Assembly: GCA_965247995.1 (NCBI GenBank)
Contig: OZ252041.1
Span: 1,218,444-1,282,443, forward strand
DNA: 64,000 nucleotides
Origin: Dehalococcoidia bacterium
GTDB lineage: Bacteria; Chloroflexota; Dehalococcoidia; UBA6926
Direction: 5' to 3'
The position numbers and the translations under genes were made by a program. The notes under the pieces were generated by a model. That model had not been told where the DNA came from, did not search any database, and saw only the letters and a list, made by a program, of their open reading frames with translations. Of the stretch, positions 11,126 through 62,572 are shown one piece after another; the stretch's first letter is position 1; each line of letters starts with the position of its first letter.

Positions 11126-11156
11126 GCGGCGGTTCGCTAGGAACAGGAGATCGAGC

Positions 11157-11666: not shown

Positions 11667-11669
11667 GCC

Positions 11670-12215: not shown

Positions 12216-12293
12216 TCGGAACGAATAGTAGAGAACCCGAAAGCCCGCGGCAGTTCGGTCCGCCGAACCCCAAGCGGACGAGGAGAACAGGCG

Positions 12294-37193: not shown

Positions 37194-37215
37194 GGCTTTT
37201 TGCGGGGAGGTTGCT

Positions 37216-37686: not shown

Positions 37687-37697
37687 GATGCCGCGGG

Positions 37698-38294
37698 GTG
37701 GTCGATACGCGAAGACGTCCTCTCGCGGTGAACGGCTCCACGGTGGTACCGTTGGCGACGGTGGTCAAGACACTCGAAGACGCGGGGACTCCCGAGGACC
37801 TTATCCACCAGGTAGTCGTGGCGAGTCAACCTATTCCAGTCACACTCCGAGAAGCCGCAGAACGGTGTAGTGCGCCTCATCGCCGGGTACGTTGGTGGCA
37901 CAGTCGGGGCCTACTCTCCGAAGTAAGTCGTGAGAAGGGCCCAGGTCCGGGTGGGAGAATCGTCTATGTCGATCTTCACGAAGTTGAACACTTGGTGAAG
38001 CACCCACCCAGCGGCGATTCGCGCCGAGCACATGACGCGCCAGCTTTCGTGCCGGGAGAGCCCAATCCGGTATTGCTCCGTGAGGCCGCTGAGCGGTGCG
38101 GGTTGCCTCTCAGCCGGATTAGGGGATGGCATGCTCGGGGCCACCTTGACGAGGTCGGCAGAGGCCCTGGCCCGGGGGGTTCGATCGTCTACGTTGACCT
38201 CAACCAGGTCCATTATCTCAGGGACAACCCTCCCCCCTACGGGCCGCGCCCCAAACTGGAGGCGTACCTCAAGATTGTCGCGAGTGTGATGTAG
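37698..38294 (+). CDS. Tandem excisionase/MerR-like HTH_17 domain protein (two ~55-aa repeats)
   Basis: Internal duplication VTLREAAERCSAP...GGRIVYVDL / VLLREAAERCGLP...GGSIVYVDL. Confidence 0.5.
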   Translation: MVDTRRRPLAVNGSTVVPLATVVKTLEDAGTPEDLIHQVVVASQPIPVTLREAAERCSAPHRRVRWWHSRGLLSEVSREKGPGPGGRIVYVDLHEVEHLVKHPPSGDSRRAHDAPAFVPGEPNPVLLREAAERCGLPLSRIRGWHARGHLDEVGRGPGPGGSIVYVDLNQVHYLRDNPPPYGPRPKLEAYLKIVASVM

Positions 38295-38611
38295 CACTGC
38301 TACTCGTCTGTTGACTTCTGCGGCGGGGGTTGACAGAGCCAAATAAAGGCATCTACCTTTCCCCCAGTCACTATCGGCTGGGGGTTTCTTGGTTCATGGG
38401 GAACGCACTCCACCGGCAACCGCGTGAGCGCAGCGTGCCCGATAGTCGAACCTTCGCTGAAGGGACGTGTCTTTCCCTAGCTATTGGGACCGCGTTTTTT
38501 GTCATGTCGCTTTGGCTCCACCAACTCCCCGAAATGCCGACGGTCGCTGCCGTCGGACTATTGGCGGCTATCCCGTTGACGTATGCCCTTGGGGCGATAT
38601 GCGGAGACGCT

Positions 38612-38803
38612 CTAGCTGGACATGCGGTTCGCTATGTAGAATCCCGCTCCGCCAATAAACGTGCTGACGACGAGCAGAACCGCCGCACCACCCCAATTGC
38701 CCACGATGGCGTTGAACACGATCAGCACGAACGCCGTGATCAACAGTAGTGCAAGTAGCACGCGAATGACCGCCGCAATGCCAGCTCCAATTACTCCGCC
38801 CAT
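38612..38803 (-). CDS. Small membrane protein (~63 aa, two TM helices)
   Basis: Strong SD GGAGGAGG 4 nt before ATG; consistent GC3 codon bias. Confidence 0.4.
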   Translation of the reverse strand: MGGVIGAGIAAVIRVLLALLLITAFVLIVFNAIVGNWGGAAVLLVVSTFIGGAGFYIANRMSS

Positions 38804-39004
38804 GTCCTCCTCCGTTCTTGAGATCCGCGTACTCGACCACGTACATCCTATTGGAACGGAGGGGGGCACCAGAACACCAATCGTGCGGGTGCCGAGCGAT
38901 CTCAAACCACCTCGGCTTCGGCCGCCAGATTCCTAGGTAACAAAAACCGACCGGCCCCTATCACTTGGCGGTGCAGCGGGGCCGGTCAGAAGAAAGGAGG
39001 GCGT

Positions 39005-39313
39005 ATGCCCTCGCCGACCAATTCTACCAGCGAACCGGCATCGGCGCGAAGACATGGCCGGAACCCGCTGGACTACCAGGACTCTCGAAACCGCGACCTG
39101 GGCCGTTGGGCTCCGCTGTTGTACTGCCCGGTCCTGGAGTGCAACAGGCCGGTCGAAGACCACCCACGGTGCACCGAATGCACGATCTCCGTCGGCCCCC
39201 ACCACTTCGAGCAGTACCTCACATCAGACGGGCGCTGCCTGACGTGTGCCTACACCGATCCAGTGCGTGATCCATCTCTGGAATATCTCCCGCTGCTATT
39301 GAGGGCGGGGTGA
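39005..39313 (+). CDS. Cys-rich zinc-ribbon protein
   Basis: SD AAGGAGG; three CxxC pairs. Confidence 0.45.
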   Translation: MPSPTNSTSEPASARRHGRNPLDYQDSRNRDLGRWAPLLYCPVLECNRPVEDHPRCTECTISVGPHHFEQYLTSDGRCLTCAYTDPVRDPSLEYLPLLLRAG

Positions 39314-39316
39314 GCG

Positions 39317-39766
39317 GTGGCCATGACCAGGCTCCCTTCTCACGTGTATGAGCGCCTAATGGTGCAGGGCCTTGCGCGCGAGTACATCGATGCGGTGGTT
39401 GAGTCTGCCCGACATGCCTTCGCGTCGGGCGACCTAGATCACGCGGCGCTGGTCGAGAACAACCACACCGACACCTTCATCGCGGCGCTGTTGTTGGTAG
39501 TCGGTGCTTTGGTTGACGAGCTCTCGCTGCCACCCTCCGGCGCACCCGGGGCCGCCGCATGCGACCGCTGCGGGAAGTCGCTCAACCCCGAGCAACTTAC
39601 ACGCGCTGCCGGCTCGGTCTCCTGTCTGGACTGCACGCTGGCGACGACGACTGACGATCTGACCCGCGTCGATATCAGCGTTGGCCTCTTACGCCGATTG
39701 CGGGGCGCAGCGTTGTACCGCCCACCCGAGACACACACGGACTCCCGATTCGACGCGACGACGTGA
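39317..39766 (+). CDS. TraR/DksA-type C4 zinc-finger protein
   Basis: CDRCGKS-x19-CLDC. Confidence 0.45.
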   Translation: MAMTRLPSHVYERLMVQGLAREYIDAVVESARHAFASGDLDHAALVENNHTDTFIAALLLVVGALVDELSLPPSGAPGAAACDRCGKSLNPEQLTRAAGSVSCLDCTLATTTDDLTRVDISVGLLRRLRGAALYRPPETHTDSRFDATT

Positions 39767-40008
39767 AACGAGAAAGGAGCGACCACCGCCATGAACGAAT
39801 CCCGCGAGACACGGGCACGCATGAACGAGCCCATCGGGAAACGGAATGGGGAAAAATCCGCGGCACGTTCGAAGGGTTGCCCGGGGGCAAGGACGCAGCG
39901 AAACGCGGAGCGCAGACGCGAGCGGCGAACGGCCTCGTGCCATTCCAACGGGTCGACGACGAGGACGACGGGCTCGGCAAAGACCAGGCCGCGGATCGGG
40001 GCTGAGGA

Positions 40009-40404
40009 GTGTCCCAACAAACCATGGCCAAGCTCCATCCAAGCTCATACACACGGCTGTGGCCCGTCTTGGGCCACTACTCAGTCATGGGTGTCATCGA
40101 CGACCATCTCGCTCGGCTCCAAGAGGCGATGGGCAAGGGCATGTCGTTGCCGAGCCCAGAGGCGTATTTGACTGCGGTCCTCGCAGACGAATTGGAGGCT
40201 CTGAAAAGTCCGTCGTTCGCGTCCGAACTGAACGGCGGCTGTGATCGATGCGGGAAAACGTTCGACCCCGAACGAGTGGTCCATTCGTCTGCCGATGCTC
40301 TCGCTTGGTGCATCGATTGTGCGCTGGCCGTGGTCGCTGATGAAGCTGCCCGGGTCAACGTCAGCGTCGGCCTCCTGATCCGGCTCCGAGACGGCGTGCG
40401 TTAG
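40009..40404 (+). CDS. TraR/DksA-type C4 zinc-finger protein, paralog of 39317-39766
   Basis: CDRCGKT-x21-CIDC; C-terminal ~50 aa alignable to paralog. Confidence 0.45.
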   Translation: MSQQTMAKLHPSSYTRLWPVLGHYSVMGVIDDHLARLQEAMGKGMSLPSPEAYLTAVLADELEALKSPSFASELNGGCDRCGKTFDPERVVHSSADALAWCIDCALAVVADEAARVNVSVGLLIRLRDGVR

Positions 40405-40433
40405 CCATCGGCACGATCCAGACGACGAGGAGG

Positions 40434-40664
40434 GTGACCATGCCGAATCGCAAGCAACACCGGGGCCTCAGCGTGCCAGCACGACCCGTTCCACCCGCGG
40501 ATGCACGCCGAATCGTCTACGTGTGTCGACTCCGATGCGGTCGCTGCGCGGCCCGAAACACGATCCGATGGATGTCCGACACGACTCCGCCGGCCGGCGA
40601 GTTGTGTGCCCGGTGCGGAGCTGGACTCCCCCTCCACGTCGAAGACGCATCCGAACCCCAATGA
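40434..40664 (+). CDS. Small zinc-ribbon protein
   Basis: CRLRCGRCAAR...CARCG. Confidence 0.3.
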   Translation: MTMPNRKQHRGLSVPARPVPPADARRIVYVCRLRCGRCAARNTIRWMSDTTPPAGELCARCGAGLPLHVEDASEPQ

Positions 40665-40770
40665 CACCCAGCGCTGCTGACCCTCGCGTCGTTGCCCTTG
40701 CTTACCGGCGTCCGGTGGTGTCGTGGGTGCTGAGGAGCTTCCGCGGCGCTCGTACCAGGTTCTACTAGTC

Positions 40771-50507: not shown

Positions 50508-50893
50508 GCGGGCACGAATCGAAGGGGGGCCGCACTCAGATGATGAAACAGCGCCTAGAAGTGCTCCGCATCCGTGCGGGGTTGTCTCACGCGGAGTTGG
50601 CAGATCGTCTGGCGCCAGGGCGCTCGTTGCGGAGCTCAACGCGCGCCGAGAAGGAAGTTGATCTCGGGTTGAGGATCCTGTCGCTCGCCCGAGAAATCGA
50701 GGGTGGGATCGAGGTTGTCCTCGGTGACGGCGAACCGACGGACGAGGAACTCAGGACAATGTGGAACGATCTCTCTAACCCGACGTGGCCGGGGCGCGGA
50801 CGCGGCGATCCAAAAATTGAGCGCGAGCCGCATGGCCCGCGGTCGAGCAGGTCGCCGAAGAGCAAGGGGAAAGACACACCCCAGAAGGCTTGA
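50504..50893 (+). CDS. Small HTH-like protein with basic C-terminus
   Basis: LRIRAGLSHAELADRL helix-turn-helix-like. Confidence 0.35.
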   Translation: MSGHESKGGRTQMMKQRLEVLRIRAGLSHAELADRLAPGRSLRSSTRAEKEVDLGLRILSLAREIEGGIEVVLGDGEPTDEELRTMWNDLSNPTWPGRGRGDPKIEREPHGPRSSRSPKSKGKDTPQKA

Positions 50894-50924
50894 CGCGTGA
50901 CTATACGTAACGTATACTATTGCC

Positions 50925-51143
50925 ATGGAGTTGCGGTTCACAAGTCACGCGCGGCGCGCGATGGTTGACCGGCGCATCACCCATGAGATGGTCGTGGCGA
51001 CGATTAACGGTGCGCGGGCCATTGAGGTAGGGCGAACGGCGACCATCTACGATGCTGAGGTAGATGCGCGGCTCTTGCGTGTTGTCGTCGTGCGTGGCTC
51101 ATACCCGCCAATCGTCGTCACGGTGCACGAACGGGATCGTTAG
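50925..51143 (+). CDS. DUF4258 domain protein
   Basis: FTSHARRAM...LRVVVV...VVTV pattern. Confidence 0.5.
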   Translation: MELRFTSHARRAMVDRRITHEMVVATINGARAIEVGRTATIYDAEVDARLLRVVVVRGSYPPIVVTVHERDR

Positions 51144-51151
51144 GAGGAAGG

Positions 51152-51388
51152 ATGGAACTGCGCTATGACCCGGAGGCCAATGCCATTTATGTGTCGCTTC
51201 GGGAGTACACCGGGAAACGGCGATCGAAGAACGTGGGTGACTGGCGCCACGTGGTCGACTATGACGAAGATGGCGAGCCGGTAGGGGTGGAGATTCTCGA
51301 AGTCTCTTCGGGTATTGACCTCCACGGGCTACCCGAGGCCGAGGCAATCGCCGCACTCATCCGGTCGTTCCCGCAACTGGTGGCGTGA
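51152..51388 (+). CDS. DUF2283 domain protein
   Basis: YDPEANAIYVSL...VDYDEDGEPVGVEIL pattern. Confidence 0.5.
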   Translation: MELRYDPEANAIYVSLREYTGKRRSKNVGDWRHVVDYDEDGEPVGVEILEVSSGIDLHGLPEAEAIAALIRSFPQLVA

Positions 51389-51603
51389 GGCGGGACGGCG
51401 ATGTCGCGGCTTGGCTCCAGAGGAAACGGGCTGAGCTTGGGCTTACTCAATCCCAGCTTGGTCAGGCCCTCGGTGTGAGAACCAACACGATAGCGCGGTG
51501 GGAGCGCGGGGAATTAGTGGTGCGGCACTCGCGGATGTTGCGGCTCGCTCTGGACGCTCTCCGCGGGTCGGCGCCGGGCGACGGGACTCCGGAACGAAAC
51601 TAA
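51385..51603 (+). CDS. XRE-family HTH transcriptional regulator
   Basis: LGLTQSQLGQALGVRTNTIARWERG. Confidence 0.55.
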   Translation: MRRDGDVAAWLQRKRAELGLTQSQLGQALGVRTNTIARWERGELVVRHSRMLRLALDALRGSAPGDGTPERN

Positions 51604-51846
51604 CGATCGTGCCAAAAACGCGACGATGCTGGCAGGTTGCACCAATAGGGGGCAAACTGTCTCAATGACGGGGCGGATGACACCGCTCTCCAATAGGCGC
51701 GGACGGCGCGGAATGTACACACGGCCCGCGTCTGTGCAACCGGATTCCGGAGCAAAACGTTACATCGCCACCCAGCGGCTGCCCGACTACCTCGAGCAGA
51801 CTGGGGAAGCCTGCTTGGGATACCAAGCAATGATCTAGATCAGCCG

Positions 51847-52629
51847 ATGGCAGAATCAGAATTGCACAAGCGAGCCCGCCGATTGTTGCAGCGCGGCGAC
51901 CGTGTGGGCCAACCTTTCGGTGAAGCTCTCGTCGCCGTGGACACAGACGCGCGTGGTGTCCGAATCAAGGACGGCCCAGCCAAGGGCAAAGCGGTCGATG
52001 CCTTCGTCGAAGCCCCAGAAGGTTACCGCGTTGGACTGGAGTTCCATTATCGGCACAAGGTCGGTGCCGCCAAAATCGCACTACTCAAAGAAGACGGGCG
52101 CTATCCGGTCCTAGAAATCGATCTGTTTCAAGGATTGAACGATGCGTCGGACGATGAGCTGCGGCAATACATCGTTGGTTGGCCCGGTTCGCACCGATTC
52201 ACTCGCCGCTGGCTGTACTTGCCGTCCATGTATGACATCGAGCGACAGGTCGCACCGGAGCGGCTTGAAGCCTTGGGTTGGATACAAAACCACGCGCGCA
52301 TCGACGAACGAGGAATGTCATCGGCGGAGTTGGAGGAGCTGTGGGCTAAGGACCGATGGGCCTCCGACGTGCTCGACAATACCAGCCGATTTGGCTGGCT
52401 GAAGTGTTGTGTGCCAGGGTGCAACGGCAAACCATCAAGAGGGTCACAGACGGTTGAATCTTACGAAACGTTGCCCCGGTTCGCTTGCTCTGACCACATC
52501 ATGCACACGGAGTTGCTGACCCATCCTGACGGGGTCCGCGCTTACAAGGAAGCGTTTCCGCGCATCGCATCGGACGTCGTCCAGGGTCAACGAGTTGATC
52601 AATCAGGGCAACCAGGTGATGGTCGTTGA
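51847..52629 (+). CDS. Hypothetical protein (260 aa) coupled to recombinase
   Basis: Stop overlaps recombinase TTG start; Cys cluster KCCVPGCNG. Confidence 0.4.
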   Translation: MAESELHKRARRLLQRGDRVGQPFGEALVAVDTDARGVRIKDGPAKGKAVDAFVEAPEGYRVGLEFHYRHKVGAAKIALLKEDGRYPVLEIDLFQGLNDASDDELRQYIVGWPGSHRFTRRWLYLPSMYDIERQVAPERLEALGWIQNHARIDERGMSSAELEELWAKDRWASDVLDNTSRFGWLKCCVPGCNGKPSRGSQTVESYETLPRFACSDHIMHTELLTHPDGVRAYKEAFPRIASDVVQGQRVDQSGQPGDGR

Positions 52630-53129
52630 GACCCGCGCTCTACGCCCGCGTCTCGACTGACGATAAGGGCCAAGACCCGGAGACGCAGCTCGTACAGTTG
52701 CAGCAAGCGGTAGGGGACGCCGCAACCCGCACCTATGTTGACCGCGCCTCGGCCGCCAACCTACGCGGACGGGCGGAGTGGCGGCAGCTACTTGACGACT
52801 GCCGCCGTGGACTCGTCCAGACGATCTACATCACCAAGATCGACCGTGCCTGGCGCTCACTGGCACAGATGAGCGCCGACCTGGAGCACCTGGACCGATG
52901 GGGCGTCGAGCTGGTGGTGACGACACAGCCGATCGATACCCGTGGTCCGACCGGGCGACTCGTGCGGAACATTCTCGGAGCTGTCGCGGAGTTCGAGCGA
53001 GAGCTGATCGCGGAGCGCACGCGCGAAGGCCTTGACCGGGCGAGACAACAAGGGAAACGTCTGGGCCGCCCGAAGGGATCTCAGGACAAGCAACCCCGCC
53101 GACGTGGCGGATACTACGCAAGAGCGTGA
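52626..53129 (+). CDS. Serine recombinase (resolvase/invertase catalytic domain), C-terminal HTH missing
   Basis: YARVSTDDKGQDPETQ catalytic Ser motif; ends shortly after GRPKG. Confidence 0.7.
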   Translation: MRPALYARVSTDDKGQDPETQLVQLQQAVGDAATRTYVDRASAANLRGRAEWRQLLDDCRRGLVQTIYITKIDRAWRSLAQMSADLEHLDRWGVELVVTTQPIDTRGPTGRLVRNILGAVAEFERELIAERTREGLDRARQQGKRLGRPKGSQDKQPRRRGGYYARA

Positions 53130-53192
53130 GGACAAAGGGGGTCGGAAAATCAGTGTGCCGGCTAGGAACGAATCGGCCTCTCAGCGGGGCGA

Positions 53193-53214
53193 CAAACAAA
53201 CGGGCGTTTGTTTG
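53193..53214. promoter_or_regulatory. Perfect palindrome CAAACAAACG-GG-CGTTTGTTTG
   Basis: 10-bp arms; related to palindrome at 55029. Confidence 0.4.
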
Positions 53215-53477
53215 AGCTCGTCCAAGGACCTGTCACAACGGGAGAGGTGGCACTACCCGGACTGACCCCATAGATGGGAACGGTAGGGGGAGGGTCGGCT
53301 ACGAGTGAGAGGAGACCTTCCTCCTCAGTACGGTGCGAATGTAGTGTGGTGAGAATGTCCACGTTCTGATCAAGGTGGGCGCATGAGTGCCCGTTAAGTA
53401 GCTGCCGACCGCTAATATCATCGGCGAGGTCCGCTGGATGGTGTCGGACGCTTTAGTACAGTTGTGGTAGACATCCC

Positions 53478-54017
53478 GTGACGCCCACGCATGCGGAGAG
53501 CCATGAGTTGCACTGTCGGCCTATCCGCACAAGCAGGGATTCGGACATAGCATTGACCACTCGACAGTACAACGATGAAGAAATCAATGAGCTGAAGGCG
53601 ATGCCGAAGCGCGTGACCAATCCAGGAGCCCGGTGGGCGAGCAAGCCGGGGCACCGCCAACGTAACTTCGTGGTCGCCGGGCTTCAGGATACCGCAAACC
53701 AATTCCAAATCTATCAGCGCCAGAGCGAGGCAGACGAGCACGACTTCTCCTGCGGGATTGCGTTCCTTCCGACCGGCGGACAACGGTTGACGCTGGCTCG
53801 TTACAACGGGCCGAGTCACATTCATGGCGACATCGCTTTCCGTCCACACATTCATCGCGCAACGGCGCGCGCTATGTCTATTGGCAAGAAGCCCGAGGCT
53901 GAGGCCGAGGAAACCAACCGATTCACAACTCTTGAAGGCGCGTTCAGATGTTTGTTTGAAGACTTCAGTCTCAGCGGGATCACCCCTCCCGAGCCCGACC
54001 AAGCGAGGCTTCTCTGA
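53478..54017 (+). CDS. Hypothetical protein (start uncertain; possible MPKRV at 53601)
   Basis: ORF; His-rich HIHGDIAFRPHIHR; coupled to next. Confidence 0.35.
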   Translation: MTPTHAESHELHCRPIRTSRDSDIALTTRQYNDEEINELKAMPKRVTNPGARWASKPGHRQRNFVVAGLQDTANQFQIYQRQSEADEHDFSCGIAFLPTGGQRLTLARYNGPSHIHGDIAFRPHIHRATARAMSIGKKPEAEAEETNRFTTLEGAFRCLFEDFSLSGITPPEPDQARLL

Positions 54018-54796
54018 TGAACCTCGATGTAGACGCCTTAAGAAACCTCTTATGCGAACGCTTGTGCGAAGACGTGCGTGTCGAGACGCGCCCAGACGGC
54101 GAGCTCATGCTACGGACGCACTTCACGTTTCCTGATGGAGACGGCTACCCCTTCCACCTGTCCGAGGCGCCTGCAGGCGGTCTCCGCCTGTCGGACCAAG
54201 GGCACACGCTCATGCATGTCAGCTACGAGCACGACATCGACTCGTTCCTGACTGGGACGAGGGGGGCTCTGCTCGAACGGATTGTCAGCGAGGGTGAGTT
54301 CGGCTACGCCGATGGCATGTTCTACACCGACACTCCACCGGAGCGACTACCCGAAGCCATCTTCAGGTTCGGCCAGGTGCTGACCCGGGTATACGATCTG
54401 ACCTTCTTGTCCCGCTCCAACGTGGGCTCCACATTCTATGACGACCTTGCCGACACTCTGACGGGCCTTGTGGACGAGGCGAAGATGCAGCGCGACTACC
54501 AACCAAACGTACCGAATGCGGAGGCGTACCTCGTAGATTATCGAATCGAAGGCAAGGGCGAGGTTCCACTTTTTGTCTACGGTGTGCCTAACCGCGACAA
54601 GGCTCGACTCGCGACTATTATGTTGGCCTACTTTCACCGACATAGCGTTCAATTCGAGTCGATCATCGTCTTCCAGAACCAAGAGGAGATTCCGAGGGTC
54701 GACCTCGCGAGGCTTTCGGACGTGGGCGGAGAAATGATCTCGTCACTGGAGTCGACCGAAGACCTGAACCGGAAACTACTGCGCCGTGTAGCTTAA
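54017..54796 (+). CDS. Hypothetical protein (259 aa), possibly DUF1828/DUF1829-like
   Basis: ORF with TGATG coupling; weak resemblance only. Confidence 0.4.
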   Translation: MNLDVDALRNLLCERLCEDVRVETRPDGELMLRTHFTFPDGDGYPFHLSEAPAGGLRLSDQGHTLMHVSYEHDIDSFLTGTRGALLERIVSEGEFGYADGMFYTDTPPERLPEAIFRFGQVLTRVYDLTFLSRSNVGSTFYDDLADTLTGLVDEAKMQRDYQPNVPNAEAYLVDYRIEGKGEVPLFVYGVPNRDKARLATIMLAYFHRHSVQFESIIVFQNQEEIPRVDLARLSDVGGEMISSLESTEDLNRKLLRRVA

Positions 54797-55028
54797 AAAA
54801 CAGCGAAGAGCGTATCGCAATTTGCCAGAGTGGTTCGCCTCGTGAGCTCCTAGGTCGAGGTGACCAGCCAGGTCCTTTCCAGCGACCTCGATTCGGGGGG
54901 TCTCAAGCGCCCGCCGGTTGGCACGATCCGGCGGGTCTGAAGAAGCGGCAGCGATGGGTGCGCCAAAAACGGGTCCACCAACCGAGGGTGCCGCGGCTAT
55001 CTAGCCGACCTGCTCCCCATGAGAGGTG

Positions 55029-55051
55029 TTACAAACGAACGTTTGTGACAC
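55029..55051. promoter_or_regulatory. Palindrome TGTTACAAACG-AA-CGTTTGTGACA
   Basis: Shares ACAAACG-NN-CGTTTGT core with 53193 palindrome. Confidence 0.4.
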
Positions 55052-55460
55052 CCGTCGCCCCTTGGACTATCAGTGGGGGAGCGGTCAGAGCCCGGTGTTC
55101 GTGTAGACGCGGGGCGCGACCTCGACCTGTTTGAGCCCTACTGCCCGGCCGCGGTCAATCAAGTCTTGTCGTGAGGCGTCGTACCGGGCCGCATGCTGCC
55201 CAAAGACCGCAGTGAATGGCGGTGGTTCAGAACACTCGACGCCGATCGACGCTCCGCACTCATCGCACACGAAGTCGGTTTCTGATCGGCGCTCGAGAAC
55301 GGGTTCGTCGTACATGGCTCGGACGGTACCGTCCGTGTAGAGTGGCCGTCAACGAGGTGTGGCGTTCGAGAACTAAGCGACCCACGGTGGAGGTGTTGAG
55401 CGGAATCGGGTGAGGTGGAAACCGGTGAGTGGGAAGGCATGAAGGCGTACACGCTAACAC

Positions 55461-55489
55461 TTGACGTGTATACCCTAAGCATGTACACT
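55461..55489 (+). promoter_or_regulatory. Promoter of higBA (TTGACG-N17-TACACT), leaderless transcript predicted
   Basis: -10 ends 8 nt before higB ATG; near-palindrome ACACTTGACGTGT overlaps -35. Confidence 0.4.
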
Positions 55490-55496
55490 TCCAGCA

Positions 55497-55793
55497 ATGA
55501 GGATCGAGTTCAGCAACAACCGGCTTGCAAGGGCGTACGCGGAACCGGAGCGGGCGATCCGACAATGGGGAGACCAGATCGGCATCCGTTACGTGCAGCG
55601 CGTGCGAATGGTGGAGAATGCTGACCGGTGGGAAGATTTGCAATCGTTCCGCGCGCTGCGTATCCATCCGCTGAGGGGGTCACGGCGGGACCAATGGGCA
55701 GTGAACGTGACGGGGCGCTGGCGGCTGATTGTCACGAGGCCCGACCAGGACACGGTACGAATCGAGGAGGTGAGCGCGCACTATGGCGACTGA
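55497..55793 (+). CDS. higB: HigB-family toxin (RelE/ParE superfamily)
   Basis: HPLRGSRRDQWAVNVTGRWRLIV...VRIEEVSAHYGD pattern. Confidence 0.7.
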   Translation: MRIEFSNNRLARAYAEPERAIRQWGDQIGIRYVQRVRMVENADRWEDLQSFRALRIHPLRGSRRDQWAVNVTGRWRLIVTRPDQDTVRIEEVSAHYGD

Positions 55794-56073
55794 GGAAAGA
55801 GTTGAACCGAGGATTGCCATTCCACCGGGCCTGATGCTCAACGACGAGCTTGAGGCGCGAGGAATGAGTCAACGACAACTCGCTGCTTCGATGCGGCGTC
55901 CCGTCAACACCGTTAATGCAATCATCCACGGCCGCAAGGCAATCACGGCGCGGACCGCGGTTGAACTGGAGGGAGCGCTTGGAACCCCAGCCTATCTATG
56001 GCTCCGAGCGGAAGCGGACTATCAATTGGCCCTTGAGCGGGGGTTTCCGCCGATGGCGTCGCTCATCGAATGA
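55783..56073 (+). CDS. higA: HigA-family antitoxin (XRE HTH)
   Basis: Overlaps higB stop; GMSQRQLAASMRRPVNTVNAIIHGRKAIT. Confidence 0.7.
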   Translation: MATEERVEPRIAIPPGLMLNDELEARGMSQRQLAASMRRPVNTVNAIIHGRKAITARTAVELEGALGTPAYLWLRAEADYQLALERGFPPMASLIE

Positions 56074-56085
56074 GCTGATCCCTCG

Positions 56086-56276
56086 CCCAGATGAGTGCTG
56101 ACCTTGAGCATCTCGACCGGTGGGGTCTCGAGCTAGTGGTCACAACCCAACCGATCGACACGCGCGGTCCTACCGGCCGCTTGGTCCGAAACGTCCTCGG
56201 CGCCGTGGCGGAAATTCGAGCGCGAACTCATCGCGGAGCGGACCCGGGAAGGCCTGGATCGTATTCGAATCGGTGA
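56086..56276 (+). pseudogene. Degenerate duplicated 3' fragment of serine recombinase gene (frameshifted)
   Basis: ~80% nt identity to 52868-53043 (MSADLEHLDRWG.ELVVTTQPIDTRGPTGRLVRN), 1-bp indel. Confidence 0.6.
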
Positions 56277-56279
56277 GGG

Positions 56280-57398
56280 GTGACTAAGGGGCCAGGAGCG
56301 GTTCTTCTGGTCGCCGCGTTCTTAGCGGTCGGCGTCGCTTGCGGACCGTCGGACGAGGAGGTTCAGCAGCTCGGCGGAGAGCGGAATCAACAGCAGCCCG
56401 CACAGGCCAGTCCGACGCCCACGGTTATCGAGCTTGGTGATGCGGAGGCTGTGCACACTTCCGCCGAAATCTATGGACACATTCCTGTGAGGCCAGCTAG
56501 TTCTCAGATCGAGAGTTACCGACTCTATGCGCTAGACCTGATCAACGAAGACCGCGCGAAGCACGGCGTTCCGCCGGTGCAACTCGGCGCGAACGAGGCA
56601 GCGCAAGTCTATGCAGAGGACAAATTGGCCAAGGCTTTGGAAAACGAGGATGCGTGGGCCAACGCCTATTCGACCGAGGGTTTGAAACCCTACATGCTGT
56701 ACGCGTTGGCGGGTGGGACCGGTAGGACGCACATAGCTGGCGGTGGCCGTTGGTATCCCGACCCTTCGTTGTGCAGACAGCCCTTGGTGGTTTGCAGCCC
56801 CTTGGACATCGACGAGTCGATCCGCGTTGTTCAGTGGATGGTGACCTACAGCCACGTCGGGGCGGACAATCAGTTGTCGGGTGCGAGGGTCCGCCCCGAC
56901 GTCGATACCGTGAACATTGGGCTCGCCTGGGACGACCGACGGTGGGTATTCGCGATGTCCCAATATTTTGAATTCGTCGGCATTGAGTATGTATTCGAGC
57001 CCGGTTTCGAAAGCGGTACCTTCAGCATGACCGGGCGACCGGTAGGTGACCTGGGTATCGGTGCTGTCTCGATCTACTTTGATCCCCCGCCGCGGCCGTT
57101 GACCCGTGAAGAGCATGAGCGCGTGCGCGCTCCTTGCCTAGGTGGAGGAGTAACTGACAAGTGCGACGACGTGGAACCCATCATCCGTGTTCTGCGCCCA
57201 CCAAAGCCTGGATCCTACTATTCGGACTTGGAGCCGATTGAGGTGGTCGCGGGCGAGTGGAACAGTAGCAGTGACGGCACGGTGACCATCCGTGCGGAAC
57301 TTGGCGATCAAGTAGCTGAACCGGGTGTCTACACGATCGTCGTCTGGTCCGCCGACTTCGACCTCGTGTTGAGCGAATATTCGATCTTCGCGTACTAG
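56280..57398 (+). CDS. Secreted CAP/SCP (PR-1-like) domain protein, probable lipoprotein
   Basis: Signal peptide LLVAAFLAVGVAC; YALDLINEDRAKHGVPPV CAP motif. Confidence 0.5.
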   Translation: MTKGPGAVLLVAAFLAVGVACGPSDEEVQQLGGERNQQQPAQASPTPTVIELGDAEAVHTSAEIYGHIPVRPASSQIESYRLYALDLINEDRAKHGVPPVQLGANEAAQVYAEDKLAKALENEDAWANAYSTEGLKPYMLYALAGGTGRTHIAGGGRWYPDPSLCRQPLVVCSPLDIDESIRVVQWMVTYSHVGADNQLSGARVRPDVDTVNIGLAWDDRRWVFAMSQYFEFVGIEYVFEPGFESGTFSMTGRPVGDLGIGAVSIYFDPPPRPLTREEHERVRAPCLGGGVTDKCDDVEPIIRVLRPPKPGSYYSDLEPIEVVAGEWNSSSDGTVTIRAELGDQVAEPGVYTIVVWSADFDLVLSEYSIFAY

Positions 57399-57427
57399 GT
57401 TCGCCAACGGCGTCCCGCGCCGTTCGG

Positions 57428-58303
57428 CTAGCTGGGCTCGGAGGTCGTGGATTGCCCGCTCGGTGCCAGTGTTCCCGTGGGAACACTGCTCGATCGGCGT
57501 TTCACGTTTCCAAAGACCGGCCGGCCAACGAGAAAACTCTGATATGCCACGAGCATGATCGCAACCATATAGCCGAGCGGAACCAGGGTAAGGGCCACCG
57601 TCATGGCTGTGTACTCGGGAGCGAATTCGTAGATCTCGTACGCAATCGCCGCGGGCTTCAACACTCCCGGCAACACAACAGTTCCGCCGAGGCCGATGAA
57701 CGTCCCCCCTACGACGCCGGATCGACTTAGATTCACTATGGCCGCGGCGCCGAGGATAGCGCCGACGCCAACGACGACCGCGAGCGTCGGCAAGATCCTG
57801 ATGAGGATCGCCTTCAACCCGGTCGGTGTCGCTGCCCTGTAGCCCACGTCGATTGTGTGATCGGGGGCTTCACCGGTGAGCCTCGTGATGATGATCGTCT
57901 GCCGGTCCTCCACATTTAGAGCCGCACTTGCCGTGACATCGCCATCGATGCTGCTGGTCACCACCATGTCGGTCGTGTACGCGTACCAGTGAGGCGAGGG
58001 CAAGGTGACCGATGCTGCCGTGTCGTCGAGGGCGACCGGTGTCTCACGAAAGTGAGCGATCTCGGTGAGCCGGTTCGTCAATACGCGCTCGCCGTCAATG
58101 AGGACGGTGGCCAACCCCGAGAATGCGAGGAACACGACCACCAGGGCCCCACCACCGTACAGGGCTGCGAATAAGGCGCGCCGCGGGGCCGATTCCAGGA
58201 ACCCCCGCAACGGTGGTCGATTCACCCACTCCTCACGAGCCTTTTCGGCGACCTGTGCCCAGATCTGTGACCACTCCAGGCTCGACGTTTCCGGTGTTGT
58301 CAT
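57428..58303 (-). CDS. Membrane protein (291 aa)
   Basis: Multiple predicted TM helices; ATGA overlap with upstream gene. Confidence 0.45.
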   Translation of the reverse strand: MTTPETSSLEWSQIWAQVAEKAREEWVNRPPLRGFLESAPRRALFAALYGGGALVVVFLAFSGLATVLIDGERVLTNRLTEIAHFRETPVALDDTAASVTLPSPHWYAYTTDMVVTSSIDGDVTASAALNVEDRQTIIITRLTGEAPDHTIDVGYRAATPTGLKAILIRILPTLAVVVGVGAILGAAAIVNLSRSGVVGGTFIGLGGTVVLPGVLKPAAIAYEIYEFAPEYTAMTVALTLVPLGYMVAIMLVAYQSFLVGRPVFGNVKRRSSSVPTGTLAPSGQSTTSEPS

Positions 58304-58575
58304 TCCGCCGTATCCTTTCCGGCTGCTCGGGACTCGAACAATTCGGCCTCGAGTTCATCGACACGTCCTTCCCTGCCTAGCCCCCAACCGAGGTCGACGC
58401 ACCACAAGACAATTAACACAACCAACGCTGCCATAATTGGATCGTTAGCTACGTACACGCCGATGCCCGCAAATGGTGCGCTGCATACGTAGAACACCCA
58501 CGGGGTCGACGAGAAGCTCGATGGTCGTCTAGGCCGTTTCTCTAGCTTTGTGCGAATGTCCGTCAGGAATCGCAT
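58300..58575 (-). CDS. Small membrane protein (91 aa)
   Basis: Two TM helices. Confidence 0.35.
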   Translation of the reverse strand: MRFLTDIRTKLEKRPRRPSSFSSTPWVFYVCSAPFAGIGVYVANDPIMAALVVLIVLWCVDLGWGLGREGRVDELEAELFESRAAGKDTAE

Positions 58576-58599
58576 GGTGTACGCCCCTTTCGTTCCGGC

Positions 58600-61500
58600 T
58601 TATCGTCGGCGAGGTCGCTGTTTACGCCCGCGTTGTCCGCCGCGACGTCGCTGGATGTGCAGACCCTCGCCGACGGTCACGCGGGAACCGCCTAGGTCCA
58701 GGGTCCGCTGGCTTGGCGGGTCGCCATCCCTGCTGAGGACCGTGTACGTCTCGTGTGGAGTGGCGCCCTCGATCGCGAGCGGCGGGATGCCTGCAGGTGG
58801 GTCAGGCGAGACGACCGTCTCTCCGGTGTCGATGTCGACCGTTCTCCATAACCCCCCCGGTTCGCGGTACGCAACGACCTCCGGGTACGACGCGACCTCC
58901 TGATCAATAATGCGACGTCGGTCGATTCGTCCCCGCCGTGGTGAAGCGTCGTCTCGGGGGGAGATTGGGCGCCTCTTATGACGATTCGGCTTCTGCTGCC
59001 CTCCTTCGTCGGTTTCGATTCTTTCAGACGGTGGCCGTTGCTCGGGGGGCTTTTTTCTCTCGGGCGCCTCGCCAACTGGGTCCTCCATCGCCGCCAGTTT
59101 CTTTACGAATCGGCTCGACGTCGCGATGGTTGGGACGACTTTTGGAACCGCCGGCAGGACTTTACTTGGAATGGTATCCGTACGGGTCGTGATGTCCTCG
59201 CCGGTACGGGTCGTGATGTCCTCGCCGGTACGGGTCGTGATGTCCTCGCCGGTATGGGCGGTGATGTCCTCGCCGGTATGGGCGGTGATGTCCTCGCCGG
59301 TATGGGTGGTGATGTCCTCGCCGGTACGGGTCGTGATGTCCTCGCCGGTACGGGTCGTGATGTCCTCGCCGGTACGGGTCGTGATGTCCTCGCCGGTATG
59401 GGTGGTGATGTCCTCGCCGGTACTTGTGGCGATGCCTTCGTCGGTTTCCTGCTGGGTTTCCAGGCGACCGTTGATCGCAGCGTCGATAGGACCGCGGTCT
59501 GCTGCCGACAGCGACGCTGCGGCCTGACGGAGGACGCGGATCGGGAGCGCGGCGATATTGATCTCTAGATTCGCAAAGGCCTCCGCGGCGTCCGCAGACT
59601 CTCGTGCCCGGTCTGCTGCATTTCGGAGCCGGGCTGCGGTCTCTCGGAGCTGTCGTTCTCGCGCGATTGCCTGATCTGCGGCGTGGCGGGTTTGTTGAGT
59701 CTTTTCGAGCCCAGCGCGGTGGCTCGCTGCTTGGGAGCGTAACCCCGCACGCTCTGCGGCGGCCTGAGCGGCCTCGGCGGCAACTCGTTGGGCTTCAGCA
59801 TTTTCCGCCTGCAAGCGGGCTGAGATCGCCGCCCTTCTCTGCCGTTCGACAAGCGCCGCGGCCTGTTTCTGCTGCCTTGCAGCAAGGTCATCGGCATGCT
59901 TAGCAATCGCGGTCGCGCCTTCGCGAAGTTTCCCGCGCTCAATCGCAAGATTCACATCGCCGAACAAACGCTCAGCGCGGGCTGAGCGAGCGGCGGCGGC
60001 GATCGCCTCAGCGTTAGCCGCGGCGGCCTCCGCCTCAGCGACTGACGCACGTTCGGCCAACTGAGTAGCAGCCTGCCGCTCCGTCCGAGCGACCTGCTGA
60101 GCTGTCCTGCTGCTCAGCCCGGCATCATCGACAAGCTGCGATGCTCCTTGGGGAATCGGTAAGGTGATCCCACGCCCCGTCTTAGGGGTAAGAATTAAGC
60201 CACCGGGCCCAATGCGAATGTGGGCGGTGACGATGTCGTCAGGGGTGTGCCCCAAGGCGCGCAATAACTCTTGTACCGGTGCCGAGCGGAGGACGCGGCT
60301 GGCGCCCTCACGCGCAACGGCTCCTGCGGACGAGGCGCCGGCCCCGTGAAGGGCAAACGCGGCGGCAATCAGTGAGCCCACCGCCGCCGGCCCAAAGGCC
60401 TGTTGGTCAAGGTCTTTAACGTCGACAACGCCCTCGCCGCGGCGCTCCACGCCGATAACCTCGCCGGAGTCCGTAAACACAATCCTGTCGCCCTCACGGA
60501 CAGACACAGTAGTGCCGATGGCGAGACCGAAACTGCCGTCGGGCCGCCGAATCGGTCCGGGCGCAATCGAGCCAAGGTTATCTAGGGCCTCGGCAAAGGC
60601 CTCGGCAAGATTGAGGGTGGACTTTCCGGGGTCGATCGCTTTCGGCGATGAACGCGGCGATTGCTCGGTCTCTTGCTCGCGTTGCAGCCGCAGCATGGTT
60701 TCGTGTTCGGACGCCTCGGACTCCAATTCGTCGCGCTGCGGAATATCATCACGTTGACGGTGCAGCCGCAGGGAGGTTTCACGGTCGGAGGCCTCGGACT
60801 CTAGTTCGTCGCGCTGCGGGATATCACGTTCGTCATGCAGCCGCAGGGAGGTTTCACGGTCGGACGCCTCGGACTCCAACTCGTCGCGCTGGGGGATAAG
60901 GTAGGTAGCGGAGTCCGGCTCCTTCTCGATCGGGTCGCCGGCTTCCTCCGCCATGTCAGGCAAGGCGACGGCTTCGGCTCGTGCGCGTCGTTCCGCGTGT
61001 TGGGCGGCCACGCGGTCGGCGGCGGAATCGACCGCTCCATCCTTGCGGAGCTGATCGAGCGCCTCGATGGCGATTGCGACATCCTCCTCGGCAGCTTCGG
61101 GATCGAGGATGACTGCCTCGTAGGCTAGTGCGAGTGCCGTCTGCAGCTCTCGGCGCTCGAGCTCCGCGCGTGCGGCCTCGACGGCCGTCGCGTCTGACTC
61201 ACCGGCCAACGCCGAGTTGAGAATCTGGTCGAGGGCGGCACCGCTGATCCCCTCGTAGAGAGGTTCGTCCTGGTCGTCGTATTCACCGCCGTCCGCGGGC
61301 GCGAAGTCATCCGGCGCGAAGTCGTCCGTGATCGGGTGATCTCCCATCGAGTGGGCAGCATCGGCTGACAGCATGTCGATGGATACCGGCCCCGGTTCCG
61401 CTTTTTCTGGGGGTGCGAGAGGTGATTCGTCGACAAGGAAGTTCCCCTCCTCGTCTATGCCGGCAAACACCAGCATCGAGTCGATCGCACCGTAGCTCTG

Positions 61501-62166
61501 CAGGCGATGAAACTCCTCTTCCGGGCTGAGGCCGCTCATGTCGAGCGCGTCGGGGCCGTCGGTCATAACGACCGATTGCGCCCACTCCGGTAGAGCGTCC
61601 CACTCCTCCTGGTCGACAGACCGGAAGCTCCCGTCATCGTCCATCCCGACGAACGCCCGAGATGGATCGATATACCCCAGCTCTTGATACCGGTCGAACT
61701 GCGCTGCCGGTTCGAGGCCTCCGACGTCCAACGCGACGAGGCCCTCGTCCATGACGGCCTCCTGCGCTAGTTCGGGCTCCGCGTCGAACTCGTCCTTGTA
61801 GACGCGGGCATAGACCGATGGGCCACCGCGGCCCCAAGCGGCGGCCGTTGTATCGATCGGGACGGTGAGCACCTGACGGCCAGGTTCGTCGGTTGCGTCC
61901 GTCAGCGTGGACGGCCCAACGGCGAACCGCTCCCGTTCCTGGCGCCGCGCGTCCTCGAGGAGCGCGAGGTCGGTGAGGTGATATCTTTCGCCCGTGTTCC
62001 GATCGATCGCGAGCTGGTCGTCGCCCTCGGTAACGACATCGAAGCCCAGCTCCTGAGCGATCTCGGTTCCCTTCACCCTGTTGTCGGAGGCGAACGCGTC
62101 GTTCGTCGTTGAGAGTTTCTGAGGCTGGGTTCCGTTGCTGCTTGTGTTCGCTTTTTCTATTGCCAC
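58600..62166 (-). CDS. Giant acidic repeat protein (1188 aa) with coiled-coil and tandem repeats
   Basis: GTG start at 62166 with AGGAGG; 11 x TGEDIT[TA][RH], 3 x IPQRDELESEASDRETSLRLH, Ala/Gln-rich coiled coil, basic tail. Confidence 0.6.
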   Translation of the reverse strand: MAIEKANTSSNGTQPQKLSTTNDAFASDNRVKGTEIAQELGFDVVTEGDDQLAIDRNTGERYHLTDLALLEDARRQERERFAVGPSTLTDATDEPGRQVLTVPIDTTAAAWGRGGPSVYARVYKDEFDAEPELAQEAVMDEGLVALDVGGLEPAAQFDRYQELGYIDPSRAFVGMDDDGSFRSVDQEEWDALPEWAQSVVMTDGPDALDMSGLSPEEEFHRLQSYGAIDSMLVFAGIDEEGNFLVDESPLAPPEKAEPGPVSIDMLSADAAHSMGDHPITDDFAPDDFAPADGGEYDDQDEPLYEGISGAALDQILNSALAGESDATAVEAARAELERRELQTALALAYEAVILDPEAAEEDVAIAIEALDQLRKDGAVDSAADRVAAQHAERRARAEAVALPDMAEEAGDPIEKEPDSATYLIPQRDELESEASDRETSLRLHDERDIPQRDELESEASDRETSLRLHRQRDDIPQRDELESEASEHETMLRLQREQETEQSPRSSPKAIDPGKSTLNLAEAFAEALDNLGSIAPGPIRRPDGSFGLAIGTTVSVREGDRIVFTDSGEVIGVERRGEGVVDVKDLDQQAFGPAAVGSLIAAAFALHGAGASSAGAVAREGASRVLRSAPVQELLRALGHTPDDIVTAHIRIGPGGLILTPKTGRGITLPIPQGASQLVDDAGLSSRTAQQVARTERQAATQLAERASVAEAEAAAANAEAIAAAARSARAERLFGDVNLAIERGKLREGATAIAKHADDLAARQQKQAAALVERQRRAAISARLQAENAEAQRVAAEAAQAAAERAGLRSQAASHRAGLEKTQQTRHAADQAIARERQLRETAARLRNAADRARESADAAEAFANLEINIAALPIRVLRQAAASLSAADRGPIDAAINGRLETQQETDEGIATSTGEDITTHTGEDITTRTGEDITTRTGEDITTRTGEDITTHTGEDITAHTGEDITAHTGEDITTRTGEDITTRTGEDITTRTDTIPSKVLPAVPKVVPTIATSSRFVKKLAAMEDPVGEAPERKKPPEQRPPSERIETDEGGQQKPNRHKRRPISPRDDASPRRGRIDRRRIIDQEVASYPEVVAYREPGGLWRTVDIDTGETVVSPDPPAGIPPLAIEGATPHETYTVLSRDGDPPSQRTLDLGGSRVTVGEGLHIQRRRGGQRGRKQRPRRR
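59180..59443. repeat. 11 tandem 24-bp repeats (GTACGGGTCGTGATGTCCTCGCCG variants) inside giant ORF
   Basis: Near-perfect head-to-tail copies, unit multiple of 3. Confidence 0.8.
60665..60900. repeat. Three tandem ~63-bp repeats inside giant ORF
   Basis: Encode IPQRDELESEASDRETSLRLH units. Confidence 0.6.
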
Positions 62167-62182
62167 CGTGGACCTCCTGTAC

Positions 62183-62572
62183 CTAGAAAGGCAGAAACGC
62201 TCGAACGGTCTGTGCGACTGCGCCAATCAACGTGCCCATGGCGCTGATGAGGCGGACCCCGACGGACGTGACCACGTCCCAGAACATGATTCCGCTGAAG
62301 ACCAGTAAGAACAGCCGTGCGGGCCACAACGGGCCTCCGAGGAAGCTGAACCCCCACGTGGCCAGCGATCCGAGCGCCAGAAACAGTTCGAACGGCCCGA
62401 CCGGTATCGGGAACGGGAGATTGAACCAGGCGAACTCGTTCTCCATGCGGAGTACGTTGAACTGCAGGAGCACATTGAGCGAGCTGGTATCGGGGCTGGC
62501 CCCGCGGAGCAGGTATTCGGCGATCATGAAGACGATCCAGGTAAAGACGAGAGCGCCTTGGAACCGAGCCAC
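62183..62572 (-). CDS. Membrane protein (129 aa)
   Basis: Four predicted TM helices; 17-nt gap to giant ORF. Confidence 0.4.
   Translation of the reverse strand: MARFQGALVFTWIVFMIAEYLLRGASPDTSSLNVLLQFNVLRMENEFAWFNLPFPIPVGPFELFLALGSLATWGFSFLGGPLWPARLFLLVFSGIMFWDVVTSVGVRLISAMGTLIGAVAQTVRAFLPF

What the first reader, a model, noticed from the sequence alone, without database searches (positions are those of the whole stretch)
53130..55100. Two-gene coupled cassette of unknown function bracketed by related palindromes and recombinase remnants
ORFs 53478-54017 and 54017-54796 (TGATG overlap) have no recognisable function and sit in a segment flanked by two near-identical palindromes (CAAACAAACG-GG-CGTTTGTTTG at 53193, TGTTACAAACG-AA-CGTTTGTGACA at 55029). 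Further out are a truncated serine recombinase (52626-53129) and a degenerate duplicate of its 3' end (56086-56276), and HigBA is inserted in between. The layout suggests a recombinase-delimited cargo cassette, possibly invertible or excisable, of the kind that often carries defence or abortive-infection genes. Alternatively the palindromes are operators of one repressor controlling both flanks.
Basis: partly seen in the sequence, partly recalled or inferred. Interest (0 to 1): 0.7.

Follow-up and report, generated by a model that had tools for sequence, protein, structure and literature searches.

The report
Candidate defence pair in recombinase-site slot
A two-gene module from a widespread but untested candidate anti-phage family sits in a slot of a mobile element bordered by two palindromes that look like serine-recombinase crossover sites, and a sister element carries a different gene in exactly that slot.

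Summary
All the sequence features exist at, or within a few bases of, the stated coordinates. Three labels change.

1. **The two ORFs have recognisable families.** ORF2 is a DUF1828 protein that matches PADLOC PDC-M24B. ORF1 (true start TTG 53553, 154 aa) belongs to a divergent DUF6978 / PDC-M24A family. The pair is a self-contained module found in unrelated contexts, including directly after cI in temperate Pseudomonas phages. PDC-M24 is a predicted, untested defence system.

2. **The recombinase is not truncated.** It is a full-length member of a populated clade of about 165-175 aa serine recombinases. These have a conserved basic '...PRxKxGYY' tail instead of a helix-turn-helix.

3. **The palindromes go with the recombinase, not the cassette.** The core AAACG-NN-CGTTT recurs next to related recombinase genes across phyla. 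In a sister island (L167) the flanks are 91-98% identical, but homology stops inside palindrome 1 and resumes inside palindrome 2. A single DUF5677 gene replaces the pair there.

The palindromes therefore delimit an exchangeable cassette slot. The central dinucleotides differ (GG vs AA), so inversion or excision between the two present sites is unlikely. The terminator reading is not excluded.

The parts
52626..53129 (+). Short-form serine recombinase, 167 aa. It has a catalytic domain plus a conserved basic tail GKRLGRPKGSQDKQPRRRGGYYARA and no HTH. The catalytic motifs YxRxS and DRxxR are present.
   Evidence: Pfam Resolvase 1e-36 over profile positions 3-144 of 145. PHROG 125 DNA invertase 4e-41. 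Relatives of 163-178 aa share the same tail.
53193..53214 (.). Palindrome 1, CAAACAAACG-GG-CGTTTGTTTG, 64 nt after the recombinase stop. Proposed crossover-type site and left border of the cassette slot.
   Evidence: The same site type lies 24-66 nt after short-recombinase genes. Homology with L167 ends at 53209, inside the site.
53553..54017 (+). Gene A of the pair, 154 aa from TTG 53553 (the mechanical ORF starts at GTG 53478). Divergent DUF6978 / PDC-M24A-type protein with conserved RYNGxSHxH...PHIH.
   Evidence: Homologs are 154-157 aa and align from this start. PHROG 27326 7e-42. 54 of 87 family members hit DUF6978 and 34 of 87 hit PDC-M24A. AF2 pLDDT 86 with no PDB fold match.
54017..54796 (+). 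Gene B of the pair, 259 aa. DUF1828 N-domain (YbjN/T3SS-chaperone-like fold) plus a C-domain with a restriction-endonuclease-like fold in a low-confidence model.
55025..55052 (.). Palindrome 2, GGTGTTACAAACG-AA-CGTTTGTGACACC (13+2+13, one G.T). Right border of the cassette slot.
   Evidence: Homology with L167 resumes at 55032, inside the site.
55085..55315 (-). Small zinc-ribbon ORF, conserved together with the right half of palindrome 2 in the sister island.
   Evidence: 91.5% nt identity to L167 7507-7789. Weak Phage_zn_bind_8 match below cut-off.
55497..56073 (+). HigB-like / HTH_3 (HigA-like) pair in a second variable slot (55316-57419).
   Evidence: L167 has HicB-like and other genes here instead.
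56079..56261 (+). Internal, frameshifted fragment (about aa 78-140) of a second serine recombinase allele.
   Evidence: 77-83% to the resident gene. (89% to the L167 recombinase). Pfam Resolvase 3.6e-5.

Best explanation
**The setting.** The region is the variable accessory part of a mobile island that follows tRNA-Asp and carries a primase, DNA methylases, dCTP deaminase and toxin-antitoxin pairs.

**The recombinase and its sites.** An intact short-form serine recombinase is followed by its cognate type of site: an A-rich palindrome with a 2-bp centre. A second site of the same class lies 1.8 kb downstream. The two sites border a slot in which whole cassettes are exchanged between related islands. 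I infer this occurs by recombinase-mediated breakage and joining at the site centres.

**The present cargo.** The slot holds an autonomous, translationally coupled two-gene module of the PDC-M24 type (A = DUF6978-like, B = DUF1828). I infer that it protects the host or lysogen against phage. In this model B combines a binding or sensor domain with a nuclease-like effector domain, and A is its tightly coupled partner.

**Current state.** With centres GG and AA the two present sites are incompatible, so the cassette is now fixed rather than switching.

**Shown:** family memberships, conservation of the pair, the link between site and recombinase, and the positions of the homology breakpoints.

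**Inferred:** that the recombinase cuts these sites, the route of exchange, the defence function and its mechanism.
For: **The module**
- DUF1828 and PDC-M24B matches for B.
- The ORF1 family links to DUF6978 and PDC-M24A.
- The same A-then-B coupled pair sits in unrelated contexts next to TA genes, transposases and a restriction-endonuclease-like gene.
- The pair lies directly after cI in phage phita81A, at 44% and 38% aa identity.
- Nucleotide homology to other loci is confined to the two coding regions.
- PDC-M24 was nominated because it is embedded in BREX, DISARM or type I RM loci (bioRxiv 10.1101/2024.01.29.577857).

**The recombinase and sites**
- The short length and tail are conserved.
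- The site lies within 120 nt after the stop in 9 of 14 short-tail loci against 4 of 118 others, Fisher p=5e-8.
- HTH-bearing relatives carry CAAACG-NN-CG(A/T)TT palindromes about 145 nt upstream of the gene.
- Three paralogous copies in one Dehalococcoidia MAG lose homology at the site.

**The slot**
- L167 is 97.6%, 91.5% and 94% identical in the flanks.
- It is unrelated between the sites, with breakpoints inside both palindromes.
- L009/L011 show recombinase, site(AC), two genes, site(GT).
Against: - No experiment or read-level junction shows recombination at these sites.
- The central dinucleotides differ within each genome (window GG/AA, L167 GC/AC). A simple single insertion would not leave this.
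- Both palindromes fold into stable hairpins (-18 and -20 kcal/mol). Each sits 33-64 nt after a gene end, so they could be U-tract-less terminators flanking a moron slot.
- Several short recombinases at 50-54% identity have ordinary GC-rich hairpins downstream instead.
- How an HTH-less recombinase would recognise DNA is unknown.
- PDC-M24 has never been tested.
- The window's ORF1 itself misses the DUF6978 and PDC-M24A thresholds.
- The ORF2 model is poor (pLDDT 65), so the nuclease-like domain is tentative.
Confidence: 0.55

Rival explanations
1. The palindromes are hairpin terminators without U-tracts. One ends the recombinase operon and one ends the minus-strand zinc-ribbon gene. They flank a 'moron' slot, and cassettes differ between islands through homologous or illegitimate recombination at conserved flanks. 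The recombinase plays no part.
For: Stable RNA hairpins with z-scores of -2.9 and -6.0. Positions are 64 nt and 33 nt after stop codons, and palindrome 2 lies between convergent genes. Some related recombinases have ordinary GC-rich hairpins at this position.
Against: There is no U-tract, and the terminator scan does not call them. An AT-rich core is kept in a 62% GC genome. The same core is kept next to recombinases only 37-46% identical in 30% GC contigs. It also lies upstream of the gene in HTH-bearing relatives. Terminators do not conserve sequence this way. The 2-bp spacer is too short to be a hairpin loop.
Confidence: 0.25
2. The segment is a currently active invertible or excisable switch. 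The recombinase flips or loops out the two-gene cassette between the two palindromes.
For: The layout of recombinase gene, then site, then a 1.8-kb segment, then site resembles the Cin/Gin/Pin layout (from memory). In L009/L011 the two sites have centres AC and GT, meaning inverted orientation.
Against: In the window the centres are GG and AA, which match in neither orientation. The cassette has 340 bp of its own upstream DNA. No inverted or empty variant was found: the only close relative (L167) shows replacement, not inversion, and the viral scans gave nothing.
Confidence: 0.07
3. The palindromes are operators of one HTH repressor of the island (for example HigA-like 55783-56073 or the HTH at 51385-51603) that controls both flanks.
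For: Symmetric 7+2+7 cores are typical of dimeric repressor sites. Several HTH genes lie nearby.
Against: Neither site overlaps a promoter-like element. Both lie after gene ends. The same core tracks recombinase genes in distant genomes that lack these HTH genes.
Confidence: 0.06
4. The two-gene pair is an addiction or toxin-antitoxin-like stabilisation module of mobile elements with no anti-phage role.
For: It is a small coupled pair that moves between mobile contexts and sits next to other TA pairs.
Against: It sits in the lysogen-expressed slot after cI in temperate phages. Relatives are embedded in BREX, DISARM or RM loci. The two roles are not exclusive.
Confidence: 0.2

Closest known systems
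PADLOC candidate system PDC-M24 (Payne et al. 2024, bioRxiv 10.1101/2024.01.29.577857)
   Same: It is a two-gene A-then-B cassette. B matches the PDC-M24B model, and the ORF1 family matches PDC-M24A. It is found in defence or mobile contexts.
   Different: This is a divergent branch. The window's A protein itself does not reach the A model, and B matches only residues 31-177. The family is a prediction that has never been tested.
Lysogen-expressed exclusion or defence genes next to the phage repressor (for example lambda rexAB; from general knowledge)
   Same: In phage phita81A the homologous pair lies immediately downstream of cI on the same strand.
   Different: There is no sequence relation to RexAB. 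Expression and phenotype are untested.
Serine DNA invertase systems (Hin/hix, Gin/gix, Cin/cix; from general knowledge)
   Same: There is a small serine recombinase gene next to a 1-2 kb segment. The segment is bounded by roughly 26-bp imperfect palindromes with A-tract arms and a 2-bp crossover centre. The GRP-type minor-groove arm is retained.
   Different: The recombinase has no C-terminal HTH. The centres of the two sites differ. The comparative signal is replacement of the segment, not inversion. No enhancer was identified.
Integrons (IntI, attI, attC cassettes; from general knowledge)
   Same: A recombinase gene is followed by a site. Downstream lie co-oriented exchangeable cassettes whose borders are recombination-site-like palindromes.
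   Different: The recombinase is a serine type, not a tyrosine type. The sites are simple double-stranded palindromes, not folded attC. Only one or two slots are seen, not arrays.
Defence hotspots or 'morons' of prophages and satellites (for example P2/P4 hotspots; from general knowledge)
   Same: Conserved flanks at 91-98% identity enclose unrelated accessory cargo: the PDC-M24 pair vs DUF5677, HigBA vs HicB-like, and an unknown ORF vs a KAP NTPase.
   Different: Here the borders of one slot coincide with recombinase-type sites.

Membership tests
PADLOC PDC-M24 | Gene B matches the PDC-M24B HMM | tested here: met
   E=3.6e-8 and 4.1e-7 to the two B models, covering residues 31-177.
PADLOC PDC-M24 | Gene A matches the PDC-M24A HMM | tested here: inconclusive
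   The window protein has no hit even at E<=10. However, 34 of 87 diverse members of its family hit PDC-M24A, best 2.2e-8.
PADLOC PDC-M24 | A then B, adjacent and on the same strand | tested here: met
   One-base overlap in the window and four-base overlaps in L001-L007. The cassette is written FAM_00129>>FAM_00065 in the source.
PADLOC PDC-M24 | Anti-phage activity | not testable with these tools
   The source lists PDCs as untested candidates.
Pfam DUF1828 (PF08861) | Score above the gathering threshold | tested here: met
   57.3 bits against 22, residues 34-125.
Pfam DUF6978 (PF22398) | Score above the gathering threshold | tested here: inconclusive
   The window ORF1 scores 13.6 bits against 29.6. 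Its 44%-identical phage homolog scores 46.2 bits. 54 of 87 family members match.
Small serine recombinases (resolvase/invertase) | N-terminal catalytic domain with YxRxS and DRxxR | tested here: met
   PF00239 1e-36. YARVS and DRAWR are read in the translation.
Small serine recombinases (resolvase/invertase) | C-terminal helix-turn-helix DNA-binding domain | tested here: not met
   The protein ends 22 aa after the catalytic domain, and no HTH family was detected. This absence is shared by a whole clade.
Serine invertase switch (Hin/Gin type) | Two crossover sites with identical central dinucleotide in inverted orientation | tested here: not met
   The centres are GG and AA. In L009 they are AC and GT.
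Integron | Tyrosine recombinase IntI with attI and attC sites | tested here: not met
   The recombinase is a serine type. The sites are simple palindromes.
Intrinsic terminator | G+C-rich stem followed by a T-run | tested here: not met
   The terminator scan does not call either palindrome. No T-run follows either one. Hairpins are nevertheless stable.
HigBA toxin-antitoxin | HigB-like toxin followed by an HTH antitoxin | tested here: inconclusive
   HigB-like scores 23.5 bits, below the cut-off of 27. HTH_3 scores 31.4 bits, above the cut-off.

The most novel reading that the evidence does not exclude
A clade of minimal serine recombinases (catalytic domain plus a basic GYY tail, no HTH) works with an AAACG-NN-CGTTT palindrome placed just after its gene. 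Together they form an integron-like platform that captures and swaps whole defence or accessory cassettes in mobile elements of Chloroflexota and other lineages. The PDC-M24-type pair would be one such captured cassette and a working anti-phage system.
Probability: 0.3. Interest if true: 0.8.

Novelty: new variant of a known kind. Interest (0 to 1): 0.58.

Why it matters
- **A testable defence family.** The analysis ties an orphan pair to a named but untested candidate (PDC-M24, that is DUF6978 plus DUF1828). It also supplies a tractable homolog: the pair after cI in Pseudomonas aeruginosa phage phita81A. The family has over a thousand 50%-identity clusters and no known function.
- **A possible new route for cassette exchange.** If the palindromes are real crossover sites, this is a serine-recombinase counterpart of cassette capture. 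It would also show how a recombinase without a DNA-binding domain finds its site, which bears on recombinase engineering.
- **If the palindromes are only terminators,** the locus is an ordinary variable 'moron' region.

Tried and rejected
- **Palindromes as part of the two-gene module:** rejected. The core is absent from L001-L008, and homology to other loci is limited to the coding regions.
- **'Truncated recombinase':** rejected.
- **Fragment 56079-56261 as a duplication of the resident gene:** rejected. It is closer to the L167 allele.
- **tRNA-Asp 3' end repeat as the island border:** none in the window.
- **Rfam:** nothing in 50000-58000.
- **PDB by sequence:** nothing for either protein.
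- **afdb50 fold library:** not available.
- **Literature on DUF1828, DUF6978 and PDC-M24:** no functional study found.
- **The Mpi invertase repeat consensus I recalled (ARACGTWCGT):** could not be verified in the library. It is used only as a lead.
- **IMG/VR scans for the junction sequences:** one plausible related site near a Gin-like invertase (L174) and one probable chance match (L173). There was no empty site.
- **Exact look-up of the window's own protein:** not on record.

Full report
**1. Observation**

The window has about 62% G+C. The two ORFs are present and share one base, TGATG.

Palindrome 1 (53193-53214) is a perfect 10+2+10. Their common core ACAAACG-NN-CGTTTGT occurs exactly twice in 64 kb. 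With up to two mismatches there are 3 matches against 0.09 expected.

The recombinase ORF, the second recombinase piece (56079-56261) and the HigB-like/HTH pair are all present.

**2. The two-gene pair**

*Family matches.*
- ORF2 carries DUF1828 (57 bits), PHROG 5059 and PADLOC PDC-M24B (3.6e-8).
- ORF1 has no Pfam hit of its own but matches PHROG 27326 at 7e-42.
- Its homologs are 154-157 aa and align from TTG 53553, which is therefore the likely start.

*Size and links of the ORF1 family.* An exhaustive profile search finds 1029 clusters at 50% identity. Of 87 diverse members, 54 match DUF6978 and 34 match PDC-M24A. The 44%-identical homolog in Pseudomonas phage phita81A passes the DUF6978 threshold.

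*Contexts.* The pair, always A then B with overlapping stop and start, occurs in unrelated places:
- beside transposases, a restriction-endonuclease-like gene and a nucleotidyltransferase (L001);
- between housekeeping genes (L003);
- beside a PIN toxin pair (L004);
- directly after cI in phita81A.

Nucleotide homology to those loci covers only the coding regions. The pair is thus a self-contained module.

*Status of PDC-M24.* It is one of 145 untested candidates nominated because such cassettes are embedded in BREX, DISARM or type I RM loci.

*Structure.*
- ORF1 gives a confident model (pLDDT 86), a beta-sheet with helices. It has no convincing PDB neighbour.
- ORF1 has an invariant RYNGxSHxH...PHIH cluster, which suggests a metal or active site.
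- The ORF2 model is weak (pLDDT 65).

**3. The recombinase**

It has the complete catalytic domain and motifs, and ends 22 residues later in GKRLGRPKGSQDKQPRRRGGYYARA. This is not a local truncation:
- Relatives in a Dehalococcoidia MAG (three copies), in metagenomes, and dozens of database proteins of 163-178 aa cover 99% of it.
- They share the tail pattern GK(R)..(GRPKG)..DKxPRxKxGYY.
- More distant relatives have the usual C-terminal HTH.

**4. The palindromes belong to this recombinase lineage**

- In AT-rich contigs, whose short recombinases are only 37-46% identical, the sequence AAAYAAAYG-AC-CGTTTRTTT lies 24-40 nt after the stop. In the window it lies 64 nt after.
- Counted uniformly, 9 of 14 short-tail loci against 4 of 118 others have the core within 120 nt downstream (p=5e-8).
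- HTH-bearing sphingomonad-type relatives carry CAAACG-GT-CG(A/T)TT palindromes about 145 nt upstream of the gene, the usual place for a resolvase site.
- In the MAG, the three copies are 99% identical up to the site and unrelated after it.
- An AT-rich core kept in a 62% G+C genome and across phyla argues for sequence-specific recognition.
- A palindrome with A-tract arms and a 2-bp centre is the established form of a serine-recombinase crossover site.

**5. The slot**

Contig L167 (recombinase 85% identical) is a sister island:

| L167 | Window | Identity | Note |
|---|---|---|---|
| 1865-4205 | 49439-51779 | 97.6% | conserved left flank |
| 6013-6582 | 52641-53209 | 78% | recombinase; homology ends inside palindrome 1 |
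| 7507-7789 | 55032-55315 | 91.5% | homology starts inside palindrome 2 |
| 10796-12365 | 57420-58974 | 94% | conserved right flank |

Between the sites L167 has one DUF5677 gene instead of the pair.

The junctions read:
- Left, window: GCGACAAACAAACG-GG-CGTTTGTTTGAGC
- Left, L167: GCGACAAACAAACG-GC-CGTTTTTCGTTGC
- Right, window: GGTGTTACAAACG-AA-CGTTTGTGACACC
- Right, L167: GCGTGCCGCAAACG-AC-CGTTTGTGACACC

L009 and L011 show the same plan with another two-gene cargo and centres AC and GT. L168 and L010 carry yet other DNA after the recombinase.

There are also variable slots on either side. The 260-aa ORF 51847-52629 is replaced by a KAP NTPase in L167. The region 55316-57419 (HigBA, recombinase fragment, a 372-aa ORF) is replaced by HicB-like and other genes. 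The recombinase fragment is 89% identical to the L167 allele, closer than to the resident gene. It is therefore debris of an earlier exchange.

**6. Limits**

- Nothing shows catalysis at these sites.
- The centres differ within each genome, so the present pair cannot recombine productively, and a single simple insertion does not explain them.
- Both palindromes make stable hairpins just after gene ends, although without T-runs. The terminator reading therefore keeps about a quarter of the probability.
- Some short recombinases lack the site.
- The defence role of the cargo rests on context only.

**7. Verdict**

| Claim | Probability |
|---|---|
| Pair belongs to the PDC-M24 / DUF6978 + DUF1828 family | about 0.85 |
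| Pair protects against phage | about 0.6 |
| Palindromes are recombinase sites | about 0.65 |
| Palindromes delimit an exchangeable slot (by any mechanism) | about 0.85 |
| Cassette is now invertible or excisable | about 0.07 |

Noticed in passing
window 52626-53129; L009-L011, L087-L166, P0406-P0510: A populated clade of serine recombinases of about 165-175 aa has no helix-turn-helix. Instead it has a conserved basic tail (GKR..DKxPRxKxGYYxR). I could not find it described. How it binds DNA is open; the GRP-type arm plus the tail on A-tract arms is my guess.
   Followed up: partly
window 37115-52600: tRNA-Asp is followed by a mobile island: a MerR-like gene, a primase/DUF927 protein (40723-43431), a pol-beta-thumb protein, MazG-like, Fic, an N6/N4 DNA methylase (46887-48719), ASCH, a DnaJ-domain protein, a dCTP-deaminase-like protein, a DUF4258/DUF2283 pair and an HTH gene. 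No repeat of the tRNA 3' end is present in the window. Sister islands exist in L167 and in a Dehalococcoidia MAG (L010).
   Followed up: partly
window 51780-52640 vs L167 4206-6012: The 260-aa ORF with no family match (51847-52629), translationally coupled to the recombinase, is replaced in the sister island by a 487-aa KAP-family NTPase. This is another variable slot.
   Followed up: no
window 57467-57488; L167 10841-10868: A third perfect 10+2+10 palindrome of a different sequence (CAGTGTTCCC-GT-GGGAACACTG) lies inside the 3' end of the minus-strand 291-aa gene. It is 47 nt from the point where synteny with L167 resumes, and it is conserved in L167.
   Followed up: no
window 58600-62226 (minus strand): A 1208-aa ORF with no Pfam match contains a tandem array of TGEDITT(R/H) heptapeptides and repeated 'IPQRDELESEASDRETSLRLH' units. 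It is conserved next to the island in L167.
   Followed up: no
L001 4145-5786 and L002 274-1915: In the closest homologs of the pair (83% for B), a 132-aa nucleotidyltransferase (NTP_transf_2, MNT-like) gene overlaps the start of gene A. This makes a possible three-gene variant.
   Followed up: no
L009 6554-7889 (also L011, L169): The cargo between the two sites in the Dehalococcoidia islands is a different co-oriented pair (111 aa and 169 aa, no family match). It has a near-consensus TTGATT-17-TATAAT promoter inside the segment.
   Followed up: partly
L174 4776-6905 (IMG/VR UViG_3300046507_000655): A phage-like contig carries GACAAACAAACG-AC-CGTTTTCGTTAC, close to the L167 left junction. It lies about 700 nt from a Gin-like invertase with an HTH, beside a cI-like repressor and a RelE/HTH pair.
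   Followed up: partly
L055 3464-3485: A Woesearchaeota contig with a short-tail recombinase has a perfect palindrome, CAAACAATCA-GG-TGATTGTTTG. It shares the outer arms and the GG centre of window palindrome 1 but has a different inner core.
   Followed up: no
window 1814-1848: The longest perfect palindrome in the window (15-bp G+C-rich arms, 5-nt loop) looks like a terminator. It lies between ORFs 163-1698 and 1877-3337.
   Followed up: no
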